31,722 nucleotides of DNA. Origin: a virus. The position numbers and the translations under genes are program-made. The first letter of the stretch is position 1; each line of letters begins with the position of its first letter. Positions 2,531 through 20,926 of this stretch are shown in pieces. The notes under the pieces were generated by a model. The model had not been told where the DNA came from and made no database searches. It saw only the letters and a program-made list of their open reading frames with translations. Where the stretch lies: UHGV virus genome UHGV-0068509. One strand, given 5' to 3'.

Positions 2531-2555
2531 TAAAAAAACCCAGCCGAAGCTGGGT
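2531..2555 (-). terminator. Rho-independent terminator between the gp16-like gene and the tailspike gene
   Basis: Minus-strand hairpin ACCCAGC-TTCG-GCTGGGT followed by a run of 7 T. Confidence 0.6.
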
Positions 2556-2604
2556 CGTTGCGTTGGTTATCTGTCAGTAGTTATGTACTTAATTAATTAT
2601 TTAT

Positions 2605-5788: not shown

Positions 5789-6484
5789 TTAAAACAACGA
5801 GCCAAGCAGGCCAAGTCCGCCGCCAATTGCCGCACCTAATCCAGTGCCAAGTCCGGGAACAATAGAGCCAAGAGCAGCGCCAGTCATAGCCCCTGAAGCT
5901 CCGCCGCTAATTGCTGTCTGAAGACCTGATGGTTTATTGGCATTAGCAGCGGCAAGAGCCGCACTTTGCTGCGAAATCTGACTCATGTTGTTGGCATATG
6001 TCTGCCCGGCGTTTGCCTGACCTTGCAGTGCGCCAAGACCAATATTTGCCAGATTCTGGTAGTTGTTCATCTGACCAGACAGCCACTGCTGACCAAGCGT
6101 TGGTGCGATTGTTGCTAACTGATTACCGGTTGCAGTGGAACCCAATCCACCTGTTGCTTCCGCTGCAGCCAGACTCTGATAGCGAGCCTGACCAGCAAGA
6201 TCTTTGTACTGCTGAGAGTTGTTATACTGGTTAAGTGCCTTCCCCTGACCTTCTAAACTGGAAAGATTCTGAAGCTGGTTAACATACTGCTCCGCAAGCG
6301 GCGTGAACGGAGCAAGGTTTTTCATGATCGTCTGCCACTGCTGATTTTGCAGGTCTGCGGCATACTTCTGGGCTTCTGCTGCATACTTTGCGCTTTTATC
6401 AGAGCTACCACCTTTCCCGCCTTTTTCATGGCACCAAGGTTCCTCGCCGCGCAGTTTTCTGCCCAGCTTAAATGCATATAACAT
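5789..6484 (-). CDS. Ejection protein, P22 gp7-like
   Basis: 231-aa ORF, N-terminus MLYAFKLGRKLRGEEP, Gly-rich hydrophobic C-terminus; synteny. Confidence 0.8.
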   Translation of the reverse strand: MLYAFKLGRKLRGEEPWCHEKGGKGGSSDKSAKYAAEAQKYAADLQNQQWQTIMKNLAPFTPLAEQYVNQLQNLSSLEGQGKALNQYNNSQQYKDLAGQARYQSLAAAEATGGLGSTATGNQLATIAPTLGQQWLSGQMNNYQNLANIGLGALQGQANAGQTYANNMSQISQQSAALAAANANKPSGLQTAISGGASGAMTGAALGSIVPGLGTGLGAAIGGGLGLLGSLF

Positions 6485-9070: not shown

Positions 9071-9532
9071 TCACGTACTCGGATCATCTTTCTCGATGTA
9101 AAACCGATTCCACGTAAACGCGCTTTTGTTACCACTACCGCGAGGCATGTCATTTCGCCGCTCAAGTGGTGGTATTTTGGTTAAAGCGATACAGATTGTC
9201 TGATATGCACTGTCAGCAGCGGTAAGGAGAGCGTCTGACGGCTGAATGACGTTATCCATGCACACTTGCACAGCGAGTTTCAAAGCGACGCCATCATTTG
9301 CCCATGCAGGGATACCTGAATCATCGTCCGGTAACGGCATGATGCCGTTTTCTGTATCAGCAAACTGATACCCAAGCTCGATACCTTTAGCCTGCCATGC
9401 TGCCATCATGTCTTCGAGGTCATTAATGGCATCTTCAATTGCCTGAGGGTCAGCATCTGTCAACGTGGCATTGGAATACAGCCCGGCTTTTCGTAAAGCC
9501 TTTAGAACGAGATCACCCTTCGTTTTCGCCAT
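9071..9532 (-). CDS. Tail accessory (portal-closure) protein, P22 gp4-like
   Basis: 153-aa ORF MAKTKGDLVLKALRKAG...; first gene after the coat region; synteny. Confidence 0.8.
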   Translation of the reverse strand: MAKTKGDLVLKALRKAGLYSNATLTDADPQAIEDAINDLEDMMAAWQAKGIELGYQFADTENGIMPLPDDDSGIPAWANDGVALKLAVQVCMDNVIQPSDALLTAADSAYQTICIALTKIPPLERRNDMPRGSGNKSAFTWNRFYIEKDDPST

Positions 9533-9701
9533 CTTCTTCCGCCTTAGCCACTTTATGCTTCGTTGCGGTTTCTTCAGGAGTTTTTACCCAGCCTTTTTTC
9601 AGGTGAGATTTAACTTCTTCGTCATCAACAATGATGTAATCGACAGCAAACTGACCACAGGTGATCATGTTGCCAGGCTTATAGAGCATTGTTCGTGCCA
9701 T
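9513..9701 (-). CDS. Small hypothetical protein between coat and gp4-like genes
   Basis: 62-aa ORF with RBS GGGAGAAG upstream of the ATG; acidic C-terminus; overlaps the gp4-like start by 20 nt. Confidence 0.4.
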   Translation of the reverse strand: MARTMLYKPGNMITCGQFAVDYIIVDDEEVKSHLKKGWVKTPEETATKHKVAKAEEDGENEG

Positions 9702-9710
9702 TGTCTTCTC

Positions 9711-9735
9711 CCAATAAAAATGGGGCCGAAGCCCC
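9711..9735 (-). terminator. Intrinsic terminator/attenuator directly after the coat gene
   Basis: Minus-strand hairpin GGGGC-TTCG-GCCCC followed by ATTTTTATT; lies between the coat stop and the next RBS. Confidence 0.6.
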
Positions 9736-9740
9736 TTAGA

Positions 9741-11000
9741 TTACTGGTTAGCCAGTACCAGGCCGGTAAACTCTGGAACCAATACACTTGCGCCAGCCAG
9801 CGTGGTGAATCGCGTCCACGTCTTACCTGCTTTGGCATCGAACTGGTAAGCCATGATGATGGTCGCCCCCTGCTCGGTAGTTGCCGTCATAACCTGCGGG
9901 CCCTGCCCGGTCGGGAATGCCAGCTTGCCGTACATCAGCTCTACAGATCCCTCAGCAAAGAAGATGTTGGAAGCCGCAGCCTTCTTGTTGAGAATGGTGA
10001 TCGCCGCGTTATTCGCCGGATTGGCGGTAACGTTCTGGTAAGGAATAGACGGCGCATCAGCGTTGTTTGGTGGCAGAATTTTCGGGCTGATGGTAACGGT
10101 GGTGCCATTTACCGCCAGGACGCGGAATACCTGCGACTGGCCTGTATCCACCTTCTTGATCATGTGGACACTATTAACGCCTGCGATAGTGAATGCATCA
10201 CCAACAGCCAGCACGCCAGCAGTAGACACGGTGATGTCGCCCTGACGGTTATCAGTAGGTGCGCCGTTGGAGTCCATTGCGGTAACTTTATGCGCTACTG
10301 CGCCACCAAGAGTTACGGCGGTGGCAGAACCTGCCTTCATCGCGCCAGCATAATCAACACGGAAGCTGTCGAAGGATGCCACAGGTGGGATCTGAGCTTT
10401 CTCATACGCCGTCAGCGTTGCGCCAACTGCATATGCGCGAGAGCCAAGCTCTTTAGCCAGGTCTTTGTAGTTGAACGGGTTGTAGAACGCTTTGCGCTGC
10501 CCACCCTGCGGCACACCAATAGAGAGCATCATTGCGTCAATGCCTGCAGATGCGTTCCAGAGGTCTTCGCCGAGAGTCTTGCCGGTTGATGCCGAACCAA
10601 TGGTGACCATGTTGGTAGCGCGGGCGGCCACCTCATCGACGATCAGGTTATCAACCCACGCTGCCAGCTGACGACCCGCCGCTTTACCAGCTTGCTCCTT
10701 ATGCCATGGATCGCGCATTTCTTTTGCGTCCAGCTCGTAGATAACGTTTTCTGGCTCGCGGAAACGCGCAGGTACCTGACGCTGAACGAGTGAGTTTGCA
10801 GTTGCTGCGGTCAGATCTAGGCCGCTAACGGTTTTCAGATGGTAACCTTGAGGGCGATAAACTACGTCGCCTGCGCGTTGCATTTCAGTGTCGCCCGGGC
10901 GGAACTTGCTGCACTCACGGGATACTACGTTTGATGCCTCGAATCCATCAATGACGTTTTCAAATAGGATTTCAAGGTCTTTAGTTAACTGATTAGGCAT
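9741..11000 (-). CDS. Major capsid (coat) protein, P22/Sf6-type
   Basis: 419-aa ORF directly after the scaffold gene; N-terminus MPNQL; size and synteny; followed by a terminator as expected for a highly expressed coat gene. Confidence 0.8.
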   Translation of the reverse strand: MPNQLTKDLEILFENVIDGFEASNVVSRECSKFRPGDTEMQRAGDVVYRPQGYHLKTVSGLDLTAATANSLVQRQVPARFREPENVIYELDAKEMRDPWHKEQAGKAAGRQLAAWVDNLIVDEVAARATNMVTIGSASTGKTLGEDLWNASAGIDAMMLSIGVPQGGQRKAFYNPFNYKDLAKELGSRAYAVGATLTAYEKAQIPPVASFDSFRVDYAGAMKAGSATAVTLGGAVAHKVTAMDSNGAPTDNRQGDITVSTAGVLAVGDAFTIAGVNSVHMIKKVDTGQSQVFRVLAVNGTTVTISPKILPPNNADAPSIPYQNVTANPANNAAITILNKKAAASNIFFAEGSVELMYGKLAFPTGQGPQVMTATTEQGATIIMAYQFDAKAGKTWTRFTTLAGASVLVPEFTGLVLANQ

Positions 11001-16171: not shown

Positions 16172-16178
16172 ATTCATC

Positions 16179-16370
16179 TCACTTAATTGTCATTTCAGGT
16201 CGTTGGCTCTTCATGCTTTCAATCAATGACTGCTTCAGCAATTCGAGTGTGCCAATCGCCTCACATACACTGATTTCACCATAATCATGGATGACGCTTT
16301 CCAGCCTCTCGTATAGCTCTTGAGTAATTGGGAATTTCTTCTCCTTACCCAAATTGATTACGCGGCTCAC
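16179..16370 (-). CDS. Small hypothetical protein (63 aa), GTG start, translationally coupled to the upstream ORF
   Basis: GGAG 6 nt upstream of GTG; start overlaps the TGA of the 80-aa ORF; helical acidic protein. Confidence 0.5.
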
Positions 16371-16371
16371 A

Positions 16372-16614
16372 TCATGCTCCGGTAGTGAACAGGTCTAACG
16401 CTTCCTTCGATTTACGCACCGCTTCAAATGTGCGGATCGTGATATCCGAATTAGCGCCGCCTGACTGGAAGTGAATTTTGAATAGCTCAAGCTTCAGTTC
16501 GTCAGTGCCAATGAACTGAAATGCTTCTTCTGCGGCTGCGTTCTGGTTCATGACCAGTTTGTAAATCTCTAACTGGAATTTCTGTTCTTCAGTCATGGGA
16601 ATAATCTCTGCCAT
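16372..16614 (-). CDS. Small hypothetical protein (80 aa)
   Basis: ATG with GGAG about 7 nt upstream; MAEIIPMTEEQKFQLEIYKLV... Confidence 0.55.
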   Translation of the reverse strand: MAEIIPMTEEQKFQLEIYKLVMNQNAAAEEAFQFIGTDELKLELFKIHFQSGGANSDITIRTFEAVRKSKEALDLFTTGA

Positions 16615-16716
16615 TGTTGGCTCCGTTTATCCGTTAAAAGGGATATCAGTTAAGTTATCCCGTGTAGGGTATAAGCCATTATCAAAGCCACTCTGCAAGG
16701 AATGGCTTTTGTGATG

Positions 16717-16744
16717 GCAATAAAAAGCCACACATATGCGTGGC
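16717..16744 (-). terminator. Putative intrinsic terminator immediately 3' of the protease gene
   Basis: Minus-strand hairpin GCCAC-GCATATGT-GTGGC followed by TTTTTATT. Confidence 0.45.
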
Positions 16745-16777
16745 CATATCATGTATAAAATCTTATACAACGAATGT

Positions 16778-17518
16778 TTATTTCGTAGGGAAAGATGTGA
16801 TCACATCAACGATGGGCTGGATTGAAAATCCAATACCAATTCCGGAGTTAGCATTCAGCGACATCATGTCCGAAACAATCTGTAGCGATCTACCAAACAT
16901 GTCCGCCATTTGCCCGAAATTAACACCCATGATCTCAACACTTCCATGCAGACTTGCTGAAGAAAGATATTGTCGCAGTTGGGCTATTTCTTGGCTGAAA
17001 GCATCAGCCTGATCGCCCATTATATATCTACGCTGGGTGACGATACCTACTAACTCTCCCGAATCTCGATCAATAATAGGTCCTCCTGAGTTCCCCCCAT
17101 TAACCATTCCATCAAGCGTAAATCGGCCATGCTCCATCGGTGCTGAAATAATTGCCTCACTTGTTAGTAACAGAGGTATCCCATGCGGGTATCCTGCAAA
17201 AATTACTTTTCTGCCCCTGGATGGAGCAAACCCAGCAGATGGTTGAAGGACTGTTCTTCCGCCAGGAAGGGGGGATTGCAATTGCATGATAGCAAAGTCG
17301 TTACTACCATCAACATGCAAAATTTTAGCGTCGATACTCTCATTTGCTTCAGTTTGAAGAATGACGTCATTGATTTGACACTCGGTTTGTAAGTCACAAC
17401 AGGTGGCCACAACATGCAAGTTAGTTACAACTAGGTTTTCTCGCATGAAACTGAACCCGCTACCACGAGACTTACCTGCAATGACCTGAAATGTTGCGTT
17501 GGCTAAGTTTTGATGCAT
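16778..17518 (-). CDS. Trypsin-like (S1/HtrA-type fold) serine protease, cytoplasmic, no PDZ domain
   Basis: 246-aa ORF with strong RBS GGAGGA; catalytic motifs in canonical order His (VVTNLHVV), Asp (DFAIMQL), Ser (GNSGGP); no N-terminal signal peptide; about 75-aa C-terminal tail ending GIGIGFSIQPIVDVI. Confidence 0.85.
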   Translation of the reverse strand: MHQNLANATFQVIAGKSRGSGFSFMRENLVVTNLHVVATCCDLQTECQINDVILQTEANESIDAKILHVDGSNDFAIMQLQSPLPGGRTVLQPSAGFAPSRGRKVIFAGYPHGIPLLLTSEAIISAPMEHGRFTLDGMVNGGNSGGPIIDRDSGELVGIVTQRRYIMGDQADAFSQEIAQLRQYLSSASLHGSVEIMGVNFGQMADMFGRSLQIVSDMMSLNANSGIGIGFSIQPIVDVITSFPTK

Positions 17519-17630
17519 TGAAATCCTCCGATTCTGGTTAGTGGAATTTCATAATGAACTCATTTCCCAGAATAATTGATATATCACATCAATTCACGCC
17601 CGGAATATTCAATACACCAATTGGCCCGTA

Positions 17631-18068
<438 letters not shown>

Positions 18069-18224
18069 TAAGGCAGGAGGTTCATCTTTCAGTGGCTGCC
18101 AGTGTTATTTCCCCACTTACTGGCTTGGGTTGTTTCGTGGTACTGCCGTTAACTGGTGGCCCAGAATAAATTCCGGTTTCATTATCAAGCCCACCCGTAG
18201 ATGGGCTTTGTAATGCCTACATGG

Positions 18225-20188: not shown

Positions 20189-20264
20189 TGGTGCCGGTTA
20201 ACGGATTTGAACCGCTACCTATTCACTTACAAGGCGACCGCTCTACCATTGGAGCTAAACCAGC
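20189..20264 (-). tRNA. tRNA-Thr (anticodon UGU), 76 nt with encoded CCA
   Basis: Hand-folded cloverleaf: 7-bp acceptor stem (one G-U), 4-bp D stem with GG in loop, anticodon loop CT-TGT-AA, T loop TTCAAAT, discriminator A, CCA. Confidence 0.7.
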
Positions 20265-20269
20265 ATGTT

Positions 20270-20344
20270 TGGCGGGACAGCGTGGACTCGAACCACGATA
20301 AGAAGGTTAACAGCCTTCCGTAATGACCTTTATACGACTGACCC
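20270..20344 (-). tRNA. tRNA-Asn (anticodon GUU), 75 nt with encoded CCA
   Basis: Hand-folded: perfect 5-bp anticodon stem, loop CT-GTT-AA, perfect T arm CGTGG-TTCGAGT-CCACG, acceptor stem with one mismatch, 4-nt variable loop, CCA. Confidence 0.6.
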
Positions 20345-20407: not shown

Positions 20408-20926
20408 CTAAATGGCTAATTGCATGTCAAGGTTTTTAACAGCAACATGCTTAACTTTCTCAACACGTTTACGCATTTTGAAAGCATTTTGCATTGGTTG
20501 GTACAAAACAAATAATGACGCTTTCAGGATGTCGTCAATTTCATTTCTACAGGTTGCCAGTGAAGGTTTTCTCCATCCCTCGCCACCACGTCCACACATC
20601 TTGCGTGGCTTTGCAGTCGCGTGATAGTAGGATGCAATTGCTCGCTTAGATGAACCATGAGCGTAGTAGCTGAGGAGGATGCCAAAGGCTTTCTTGTCAA
20701 TGTACATGACGGAATCGACGACCTGAGAAATCAACATTCCATCGTCATCATTACACATTGGCCTTGTAATAACTCTTCCCGGCTCTACGCTCTCCATGAA
20801 CTTCGCTATTACGCTGCTCATGCGCTTTTCCAGACGACCTGAATAAACCCATGCGCCCCATAGTTCAAGCCATCCATTCAGCCAATCGTGCTGCTCTTTG
20901 GTGAGGTTTAGTTCTCTTATGCTCAT
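20408..20926 (-). CDS. Q: Late-gene antiterminator Q family protein
   Basis: 172-aa ORF with LELWGAWVYSG and RPMCNDDDGMLI motifs typical of Q-family antiterminators; last gene before the tRNA/lysis region. Confidence 0.8.
   Translation of the reverse strand: MSIRELNLTKEQHDWLNGWLELWGAWVYSGRLEKRMSSVIAKFMESVEPGRVITRPMCNDDDGMLISQVVDSVMYIDKKAFGILLSYYAHGSSKRAIASYYHATAKPRKMCGRGGEGWRKPSLATCRNEIDDILKASLFVLYQPMQNAFKMRKRVEKVKHVAVKNLDMQLAI

What the first reader, a model, noticed from the sequence alone, without database searches (positions are those of the whole stretch)
9707..9740. GC-clamp tetraloop terminator immediately after the coat gene
A GGGGC-TTCG-GCCCC hairpin plus U-tract sits 5 bp after the coat stop and before the next gene's RBS. 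It is likely a partial terminator or stabilising 3' hairpin that sets coat-to-downstream stoichiometry. The following 62-aa ORF is therefore in a separately tuned expression context.
Basis: seen in the sequence. Interest (0 to 1): 0.2.

Follow-up and report, generated by a model that had tools for sequence, protein, structure and literature searches.

The report
Leaky terminator hairpin after coat gene
A short G+C-rich RNA hairpin followed by a run of U sits right after the major coat gene of this P22-like phage; the same feature is already annotated in phages P22, Sf6 and HK97, so it is real but ordinary.

Summary
The genes lie on the minus strand. The coat gene (9741-11000) ends with TAA. 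Five nt later comes GGGGC-UUCG-GCCCC (9735-9722), then AUUUUUAUU, a GGGAG ribosome-binding site and the ATG of a 62-aa ORF.

The hairpin is not chance. The pattern is expected 0.01 times per window. It fills one of only two sizeable terminator-like intergenic gaps in the tightly packed 16-kb virion-gene cluster. A G+C-rich hairpin follows the coat stop in 19 of 20 surveyed phages with a P22-type coat (identity to this one 26-100%). Their stems differ, and most have a T-run.

It is already known. GenBank annotates the homologous element in P22 ([quoted passage not shown]), in Sf6 ("terminator; t coat") and in HK97 ("terminator, putative"). Lambda has the same layout after gene E.

The most likely mechanism is a weak intrinsic terminator and 3'-end stabiliser that enriches scaffold-coat mRNA. 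It must be largely read through, because eight downstream virion genes have no convincing promoter and a Q antiterminator gene is present. This copy is the weakest surveyed (5 bp, -9.6 kcal/mol). Function is inferred, not shown. Interest is low.

The parts
9741..11000 (-). Major coat protein gene (419 aa); stop TAA at 9743-9741
   Evidence: ORF list; Pfam PF11651 P22_CoatProtein, E = 2e-70; tblastn 67% identity to Kapi1/Sf101 coat
9736..9740 (-). 5-nt spacer (UCUAA) between the coat stop and the hairpin. A ribosome terminating at the UAA would cover the 5' arm.
   Evidence: Sequence. The spacer varies among relatives while the stem does not. The ribosome-footprint argument is inference.
9722..9735 (-). 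Hairpin GGGGC-UUCG-GCCCC: 5 G-C pairs closing a C(UUCG)G tetraloop, dG -9.6 kcal/mol
   Evidence: Identical in CUS-3, Sf101 and Kapi1 and in most related IMG/VR loci.
9713..9721 (-). U-rich tract AUUUUUAUU directly 3' of the stem (6 U in the first 8 nt)
9708..9712 (-). Shine-Dalgarno-like GGGAG, 6 nt upstream of the ATG of the 62-aa ORF
   Evidence: Sequence
9513..9701 (-). 62-aa ORF of unknown function, in the same PHROG as P22 orf69. Its 3' end overlaps the gp4 start by 20 nt.
   Evidence: phrog_1175, E = 2e-28, the same family as P22 orf69; conserved small ORF after the hairpin in many relatives; no Pfam or NCBIfam hit
9071..9532 (-). gp4-type head-tail adaptor gene, the first essential gene that needs read-through of the hairpin
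   Evidence: Pfam PF11650 P22_Tail-4, E = 7e-41
20408..20926 (-). Q-type late antiterminator gene (context: the late operon is read by terminator-resistant RNA polymerase)
   Evidence: Pfam PF06530 Phage_antitermQ, E = 1.6e-25; 11/12 promoter-like site at 20430-20401 (-) and terminator-like hairpins downstream
2537..2556 (-). Second sense-strand terminator-like hairpin of the cluster (GACCCAGC-UUCG-GCUGGGUU + UUUUUUAU), between the gp16-like gene and the tailspike gene

Best explanation
This is the post-coat-gene hairpin ('t coat') of P22-like and lambdoid phages. It is a weak, leaky intrinsic terminator whose hairpin also caps and protects the 3' end of the upstream message.

Proposed mechanism, all steps inferred:
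1. Late transcription starts downstream of the Q gene and runs leftward in window coordinates through the terminase, portal, scaffold and coat genes.
2. At the hairpin and U-tract, a minority of polymerases release. In addition, read-through transcripts may be cut in the single-stranded AU-rich tract.
3. Either route gives an RNA that ends in the very stable GGGGC-UUCG-GCCCC hairpin, which resists 3'-to-5' exonucleases.
4. The result is more, and longer-lived, mRNA for the high-copy proteins (scaffold, coat) than for the low-copy head-completion, ejection and tail proteins encoded downstream.
5. Most polymerases, made terminator-resistant by Q, read through, so the downstream genes are still expressed. 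The 62-aa ORF has its own RBS immediately after the U-tract and is probably translationally coupled to gp4.

Shown here: the structure, its position and its conservation. Not shown: termination, stabilisation or any stoichiometric effect.
For: - Anatomy fits an intrinsic terminator on the sense strand: an all-G-C stem, a UUCG loop, 6 U in the 8 nt after the stem, in an intergenic gap directly after a stop codon.
- Position is specific. From the small terminase gene to gp16, gene junctions overlap or are 20 nt or shorter, except portal-scaffold (90 nt, no terminator-like hairpin) and coat-orf62 (39 nt, filled by hairpin, U-tract and RBS). Of the three strongest sense-strand hairpins with a T-rich tail, the third (12795) lies inside the portal ORF, leaving this one and 2556-2537 as the intergenic ones.
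- Conservation. The hairpin is identical in CUS-3, Sf101 and Kapi1. The stem is invariant in 78 of 79 alignable of the 80 gp4-anchored loci, while the spacer varies, and the one loop variant, UACG, is still a UNCG loop.
- Structure is kept with different sequences in distant phages that have a P22-type coat. Examples are GGGCGGC/GUCGCCC, GGGGAGCC/GGCUCC, GGGGGC-GAAA-GCCCCC, AGGCCUCGC/GCGGGGCCU and GCGGGCCGGG-GAAA-CCUGGCCCGC. This holds in 19 of 20 phages, and 12 of the 19 have at least 5 T in the next 8 nt.
- The post-coat hairpin is the strongest local fold of its ~2.5-kb region in 8 of 20 loci and in the top five in 16 of 20.
- In P22 and Sf6 it is the top sense-strand terminator-like site of the 13-kb virion-gene cluster.
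- Curated annotation of the homologues gives the same reading: P22 stem_loop 6102-6119, Sf6 'terminator; t coat' 6147-6173, HK97 'terminator putative' after the major head gene and on both sides of the major tail gene. Lambda has AUGGCCC-UUCG-GGGCCAU 2 nt after the gene E stop.
- Leakiness. Eight virion genes follow with only chance-level promoter matches (14 found against 23.9 expected in shuffles). A Q antiterminator gene is present.
- Functional precedent: the phiX174 terminators after genes J, F and G each block only 20-40% of transcription.
Against: - There are no transcript data for this or any close relative in what I could search, so neither termination nor stabilisation is shown.
- The stem has only 5 bp, the minimum the scan accepts. 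An A separates it from the U-run. It is the weakest of the 21 hairpins compared (-9.6 against -11 to -24 kcal/mol).
- Q-modified polymerase is expected to ignore such a signal almost completely (established lambda biology, my own knowledge).
- Some distant relatives keep the hairpin but lack a U-tract (L028, L029, PVA1, ct3Oc712; also lambda and HK97, which have unrelated coats). That fits a pure stability element better than a terminator.
- The T-run may be selected partly as an A/U-rich spacer upstream of the next RBS.
- dRNA-seq of the P22-like prophage BTP1 reported internal promoters in the capsid gene cluster, so the downstream genes may not rely on read-through alone.
Confidence: 0.6

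Rival explanations
1. It is a pure mRNA stability or processing element. Polymerase does not terminate here at all. The hairpin only blocks 3' exonucleases after endonucleolytic cleavage downstream, for example by RNase E in the AU-rich tract. This would give a long-lived scaffold-coat mRNA segment, like REP or papA-type stabilisers.
For: - The operon is Q-antiterminated, so terminators should be read through.
- The hairpin is very stable for its size, a C(UUCG)G tetraloop on 5 G-C pairs.
- Several relatives, and lambda, keep the hairpin without a proper U-tract.
- An AU-rich single-stranded tract next to a stem is a typical RNase E context (my own knowledge).
Against: Most homologues (12 of 19) have a T-run abutting the stem, and several add an upstream A-run that pairs with it. 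A mere exonuclease block does not need this; it is the signature of intrinsic terminators. This cannot be tested further here.
Confidence: 0.25
2. It has no present regulatory role. It would be a vestigial terminator or module-boundary sequence that persists because it lies at a mosaic junction, a recombination joint between the coat module and the head-completion module.
For: Similarity changes sharply at the hairpin. Window against CUS-3 or Sf101 is 58-77% identical over the last 900 nt of the coat gene but 97-100% over the 900 nt after the hairpin. Window against L005 is 86-92% on the left, 71% over the first 100 nt on the right, then 98-100% over the next 500 nt. The same GGGGC/GCCCC stem occurs next to otherwise unrelated coat genes, including P22, Sf6, CUS-3, Skarpretter and STP9.
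Against: - Hairpins with different sequences occupy the same position in distant phages. That argues for selection on structure, not for inheritance of a joint.
- The stem is invariant while the adjacent spacer varies.
- A 14-nt identity is short for homologous recombination.
- Junctions at gene boundaries are expected anyway, because hybrids broken inside genes are selected against.
Confidence: 0.1
3. It is a translational insulator. The hairpin would stop ribosomes that finish the coat ORF from re-initiating or coupling into the next ORF, and would keep the downstream RBS unpaired. The 62-aa ORF and gp4 would then be translated at a low, independent rate.
For: The hairpin lies 5 nt after the stop and 9 nt before the SD. 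In the predicted fold the SD region is not paired with the hairpin. The stop-to-hairpin distance is 4-7 nt in all of the temperate P22-like genomes examined except L024 (19 nt).
Against: The distance is 13-33 nt in Skarpretter, STP9, Lumpael, IME279, Kc259 and Vibrio 1.275.O, so close spacing is not conserved. A U-run is not needed for this role. There is no direct test.
Confidence: 0.05

Closest known systems
Sf6 't coat' (NC_005344 6147-6173, annotated 'stem-loop that is likely to be a transcription terminator') and the P22 post-gene-5 stem-loop (NC_002371 6102-6119)
   Same: Same genomic position: coat stop, 4-5 nt, hairpin, T-rich tract, RBS, small ORF, gp4 homologue. Same GGGGC/GCCCC stem core with a 4-nt loop. 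Same phage group (Lederbergvirus-like).
   Different: Loop UUCG here against UGCG (P22) and UUAC (Sf6). The stem here is one or two pairs shorter (5 against 6-7 bp). The neighbouring coat proteins are only about 25-29% identical to this one. In Sf6 the small ORF that follows belongs to a different PHROG.
CUS-3 / Sf101 / Kapi1 post-coat hairpin (not annotated in those records)
   Same: The 14-nt hairpin, U-tract, RBS and downstream ORF are identical in sequence.
   Different: The upstream coat gene end and the spacer differ (TAATTTTGGT against TAATCTAA). In those phages the flanks add up to three pairs, giving 8 bp and -13.3 kcal/mol.
HK97 putative terminator after major head gene 5, and the lambda hairpin between E and FI
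   Same: A G+C-rich tetraloop hairpin 2 nt after the stop of the major capsid gene, followed by the RBS of the next gene, inside a Q-antiterminated late operon. Lambda also uses a UUCG loop.
   Different: The capsid protein families are unrelated at the sequence level. The stems are 7 bp or longer, and the U-tracts are poorer (lambda UGUUUCUCU, HK97 UUUUAACG). HK97 also has such hairpins on both sides of its major tail gene.
phiX174 partial terminators TJ, TF, TG, TH
   Same: Leaky Rho-independent terminators placed after capsid genes that step down transcript abundance along a polycistronic unit. Measured termination is 20-40% for TJ, TF and TG.
   Different: A different virus family and no antitermination system. 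The effect is measured there and only inferred here.
T7 Tphi after capsid gene 10, and the papA or REP-type 3' stabilising hairpins of E. coli operons (my own knowledge, not tested here)
   Same: A hairpin right after the gene for the most abundant structural subunit raises its mRNA level relative to downstream genes, by partial termination or by 3'-end protection.
   Different: Tphi acts on T7 RNA polymerase. The pap and REP elements act after RNase E processing in host operons. There is no sequence relationship.

Membership tests
Intrinsic (Rho-independent) terminator | G+C-rich stem with a short loop on the transcribed strand | tested here: met
   5 G-C pairs, 4-nt UUCG loop, dG -9.6 kcal/mol. 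The stem length is at the lower limit for the class.
Intrinsic (Rho-independent) terminator | U-tract immediately 3' of the stem | tested here: met
   AUUUUUAU, 6 U in 8 nt, although the first base is A
Intrinsic (Rho-independent) terminator | Located after a stop codon in a non-coding gap | tested here: met
   5 nt after the coat TAA, inside the 39-nt coat-orf62 gap
Intrinsic (Rho-independent) terminator | RNA 3' ends form at the U-tract, in vivo or in vitro | not testable with these tools
   No transcript data. Literature searches found no 3'-end mapping for P22-like late operons.
Post-coat-gene stem-loop of P22-like phages ('t coat') | Synteny: scaffold, coat, hairpin, small ORF, gp4 adaptor, gp10 | tested here: met
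   Pfam assignments, the ORF map and the same order in P22, Sf6, CUS-3, Sf101 and Kapi1
Post-coat-gene stem-loop of P22-like phages ('t coat') | Sequence or structure homology to the annotated P22 and Sf6 elements | tested here: met
   Shared GGGGC-N4-GCCCC core and T-rich tail
Post-coat-gene stem-loop of P22-like phages ('t coat') | Conserved across the family beyond close relatives | tested here: met
   19 of 20 phages with a PF11651-type coat carry a hairpin within 4-33 nt of the stop. The exception is Ralstonia phage Hennie.
UNCG tetraloop hairpin | Loop UNCG closed by a C-G pair | tested here: met
   C(UUCG)G by sequence. The natural variant UACG keeps the motif. The extra thermodynamic stability is established knowledge and was not measured here.
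mRNA 3'-stabiliser hairpin (REP or papA-like) | The upstream mRNA segment is longer-lived or more abundant because of the hairpin | not testable with these tools
   Needs half-life and abundance measurements
Any curated Rfam RNA family | Match at gathering score | tested here: not met
   The only matches in the window are the two tRNAs at 20192-20344

The most novel reading that the evidence does not exclude
The hairpin may be more than a generic terminator. The GGGGC-UNCG-GCCCC core recurs next to coat genes that have diverged to under 30% identity, and it coincides with a sharp mosaic junction. That could mean it acts as a preferred recombination joint for swapping coat modules. Alternatively, because the stop codon lies only 4-7 nt upstream in nearly all of the temperate P22-like genomes examined (L024 is the exception at 19 nt), it could be a ribosome-gated terminator. 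A ribosome closely following the polymerase would mask the 5' arm, so termination would occur only on untranslated or uncoupled transcripts.
Probability: 0.06. Interest if true: 0.45.

Novelty: already known. Interest (0 to 1): 0.12.

Why it matters
It matters little beyond annotation. It adds one more instance, and a small comparative survey, showing that phages with P22-type coats, like lambda and HK97, place a hairpin directly after the gene for their most abundant virion protein. This is consistent with tuning expression at the transcript level inside a single late operon. The open point for the whole class is whether these hairpins act by termination or by mRNA stabilisation in an antiterminated operon. 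That is a modest, directly testable question. This copy would be a convenient minimal test case because it is the shortest one found.

Tried and rejected
- **Species-representative genomes.** A scan for coat relatives gave no confirmed locus.
- **gp4-anchored scan of viral contigs.** It returned 80 loci that were all 100% identical in gp4, so it added little diversity. Diversity came instead from tblastn of the coat against GenBank phages followed by fetching 11 spread hits.
- **Sliding 34-nt fold ranking.** It mis-scored the window's own locus (rank 53), because the best window there also includes a neighbouring hairpin inside the coat coding sequence and fell outside my acceptance zone. I replaced it with a perfect-stem hairpin ranking.
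- **Literature.** Eight full-text searches and several papers gave no experimental study of the post-coat hairpin in P22-like phages or lambda. I tried two PMC ids that I recalled as the P22 genome papers, and neither is held. The statement that the feature is known therefore rests on the GenBank feature tables.
- **Rfam.** No family matches.
- **Pfam and NCBIfam.** Nothing for the 62-aa ORF.
- **Bidirectional or antisense terminator.** Rejected: on the plus strand the palindrome is followed by TTAGATTA, not a T-run.
- **RNase III site.** Rejected: a 5-bp stem is far too short (established knowledge).
- **Specific protein-binding operator.** Rejected: the stem sequences differ among relatives.
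- **Classical terminator discriminant score.** I did not compute one, because I would have had to quote the formula from memory.

Full report
**1. What is there**

The genes in this part of the window are on the minus strand. Read 5'-to-3' on that strand, the layout is:

- a 419-aa ORF (9741..11000) ending in TAA (9743-9741)
- UCUAA (9740-9736)
- GGGGC (9735-9731), UUCG (9730-9727), GCCCC (9726-9722)
- AUUUUUAUU (9721-9713)
- GGGAG (9712-9708)
- six more nt, then the AUG (9701) of a 62-aa ORF (9513..9701)

The 419-aa ORF is a P22-type coat protein (Pfam PF11651, E = 2e-70). The ORFs around it are a scaffold protein, a gp4-type adaptor (PF11650) and a gp10-type protein (PF11134). Nucleotide searches place the region among P22-like phages (Lederbergvirus) of the CUS-3/Sf101/Kapi1 kind.

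**2. Is it more than chance?**

- The consensus scan lists the site as terminator-like with the minimum stem it accepts: 5 pairs, all G-C, loop 4.
- The exact pattern GGGGCNNNNGCCCC occurs once in the window against 0.01 expected from shuffles.
- Folding the 71-nt context keeps the hairpin in the MFE and centroid structures (z = -2.25).
- The isolated hairpin has dG = -9.6 kcal/mol.

By energy alone the hairpin is not exceptional. On the sense strand of the 16-kb virion-gene cluster it ranks 11th of 306 perfect-stem hairpins. Position is what sets it apart. From the small terminase gene to the gp16-like gene, the junctions overlap or are 20 nt or shorter, with two exceptions: portal-scaffold (90 nt, no terminator-like hairpin) and coat-orf62 (39 nt, filled by hairpin, U-tract and RBS). 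Among hairpins with a T-rich tail it ranks third. Of the top three, only this one and the one at 2556-2537 lie between genes.

**3. Conservation**

*Close relatives.* The 14-nt hairpin, the U-tract and the RBS are identical in CUS-3, Sf101 and Kapi1. Of 26 IMG/VR loci found with the coat protein, 24 carry the GGGGC-TTCG-GCCCC core. One of these, L004, is 100% identical in the coat protein and is probably the source contig. Of the other two loci, L025 has a frameshifted coat ORF so my stop-finder did not reach its post-coat region, and L028 has a different hairpin.

In the 79 alignable of the 80 further loci anchored on an identical gp4, the stem is unchanged in all but one, where an outer pair is lost. 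The only loop variant is UACG, still a UNCG loop. The 7-nt spacer upstream shows several variants.

*Distant relatives.* I fetched 11 GenBank phages spread over the tblastn ranking of the coat protein, and added P22, Sf6, CUS-3 and six IMG/VR loci, L004 among them. Coat identity to the window ran from 26% to 100%. Hosts were Escherichia, Salmonella, Klebsiella, Kosakonia, Stutzerimonas, Vibrio and Ralstonia.

- 19 of 20 have a G+C-rich hairpin 4-33 nt after the coat stop. The exception is Ralstonia phage Hennie.
- Stem sequences differ while pairing is kept: GGGCGGC/GUCGCCC, GGGGAGCC/GGCUCC, GGGGGC-GAAA-GCCCCC, AGGCCUCGC/GCGGGGCCU, GAGGGAGC/GCUCCC and GCGGGCCGGG-GAAA-CCUGGCCCGC.
- 12 of the 19 have at least 5 T in the next 8 nt.
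- The post-coat hairpin is the strongest local fold of its ~2.5-kb region in 8 of 20 loci and among the top five in 16 of 20.
- In P22 and Sf6 it is the best sense-strand terminator-like site in the 13-kb virion-gene cluster.

This is good evidence that the structure is under selection at this position.

**4. It is already annotated**

- The P22 RefSeq record carries [quoted passage not shown]. The sequence is AGGGGC-UGCG-GCCCCU UUCUUUAUGGAG..AUG orf69.
- The Sf6 record carries [quoted passage not shown]. The sequence is GGGGC-UUAC-GCCCC UUUUAUGUUUU.
- HK97 has "terminator, putative" directly after major head gene 5, and two more on either side of the major tail gene.
- Lambda has AUGGCCC-UUCG-GGGCCAU 2 nt after the stop of E, followed by the RBS of FI.

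The window's element is thus another copy of a known feature. Its exact sequence already exists in GenBank phages.

**5. How it most likely works**

*Shown.* The site has the anatomy of an intrinsic terminator on the sense strand, directly after the gene for the most abundant virion protein, and it is conserved.

*Context.* A Q-type antiterminator gene (PF06530) lies at 20408-20926. An 11/12 promoter-like site overlaps its 3' end. Terminator-like hairpins and two tRNA genes follow before the lysis genes. This is the standard lambdoid late-operon layout. Downstream of the coat hairpin lie the genes for gp4, gp10, gp26, gp14, gp7, gp20, gp16 and the tailspike. That stretch has only chance-level promoter matches. 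The hairpin therefore cannot be an efficient stop.

*Inferred.* A minority of polymerases terminate here, and read-through RNA may also be cut in the AU-rich tract. Either way the resulting 3' end, capped by a C(UUCG)G hairpin on five G-C pairs, resists 3' exonucleases. Scaffold-coat mRNA would then be more abundant and longer-lived than the mRNA for the low-copy proteins downstream. phiX174 provides measured precedent: its terminators after J, F and G each block 20-40% of transcription.

I put 0.6 on this combined "leaky terminator plus 3' cap" reading. The rivals are:

| Reading | Confidence | Main reason |
|---|---|---|
| Pure stability or processing element | 0.25 | Q modification; some relatives and lambda lack a U-tract |
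| No current function, or a recombination joint | 0.10 | Sharp mosaic junction at the hairpin |
| Translational insulator | 0.05 | Close stop-to-hairpin spacing, but not conserved |

**6. Limits of the stoichiometry claim**

This copy is the weakest of the 21 hairpins compared: 5 bp and -9.6 kcal/mol against 6-13 bp and -11 to -24 kcal/mol. An A separates the stem from the U-run. In an antiterminated operon it can account for only part of the difference between a protein needed in hundreds of copies and proteins needed in about a dozen (copy numbers from my own knowledge of P22). Translation initiation must do most of the work.

The 62-aa ORF has its own RBS, but its last 20 nt overlap the gp4 start. 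It therefore belongs to the downstream expression unit and is not separately tuned from it. It falls in PHROG 1175 with P22 orf69. A small ORF with a similar N-terminal motif follows the hairpin in many of the surveyed phages. Its function is unknown.

**7. Verdict**

Novelty: already known. Interest: low. The one open question is whether such hairpins act by termination or by stabilisation under Q antitermination. It applies to the whole class and needs transcript mapping and stem mutants.

Noticed in passing
window 9722-9735 and flanks; loci L001, L002, L005, L018, L027: The hairpin coincides with a sharp mosaic junction. Window against CUS-3 or Sf101 is 58-77% identical over the last 900 nt of the coat gene but 97-100% over the 900 nt after the hairpin. 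Window against L005 is 86-92% on the left, 71% over the first 100 nt on the right, then 98-100% over the next 500 nt.
   Followed up: partly
window 9513-9701 (-); L030 6135-6344; L112, L119-L122, L024-L029: The small ORF after the hairpin is a conserved family (PHROG 1175, P22 orf69) of unknown function, with an N-terminal M-x-x-(I/L)YKxG ... GW..P motif. It recurs in Dewey, Skarpretter, Vibrio phages and distant IMG/VR loci. In Vibrio phage PVA1 the equivalent 98-aa ORF is not annotated. Sf6 has a different family (PHROG 3251) at that position.
   Followed up: partly
window 9513-9532 (-): The 62-aa ORF overlaps the gp4 start codon by 20 nt, which suggests translational coupling of gp4 to the small ORF.
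   Followed up: no
window 2537-2556 (-): There is a second, stronger terminator-like hairpin with the same UUCG loop: GACCCAGC-UUCG-GCUGGGUU followed by UUUUUUAU, -13.5 kcal/mol. It lies in the 131-nt gap between the gp16-like gene and the tailspike gene, where P22 carries the immI/ant region. This phage has no such insert.
   Followed up: no
window 20189-20344 (-): tRNA-Asn(GTT) and tRNA-Thr(TGT) genes lie between the Q antiterminator gene and the lysis genes. Terminator-like hairpins bracket them, one just after the Q stop and one at 20132-20118. The epsilon34 paper mentions the same tRNA pair for a Salmonella P22-like prophage.
   Followed up: no
window 9741-11000 (-): No GenBank phage has a coat protein more than 67.5% identical to this one, and the best E. 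coli complete genome is about 90% identical at the DNA level over 9400-10300. IMG/VR holds 93-100% matches. The coat module is therefore a variant poorly represented among sequenced phage isolates.
   Followed up: no
L119 (Vibrio phage PVA1) 1822-1850: The post-coat hairpin there is preceded by a run of nine A and is not followed by a T-run. It looks like a terminator for the opposite strand, although the flanking genes run in the same direction.
   Followed up: no
window 16178-18224 (-): Two long stretches between the lysis genes and the small terminase gene contain only small ORFs or none above 100 aa, apart from one 246-aa ORF. Each has a sense-strand terminator-like hairpin (18743-18723 and 16745-16726). 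They may be inserted accessory genes.
   Followed up: no
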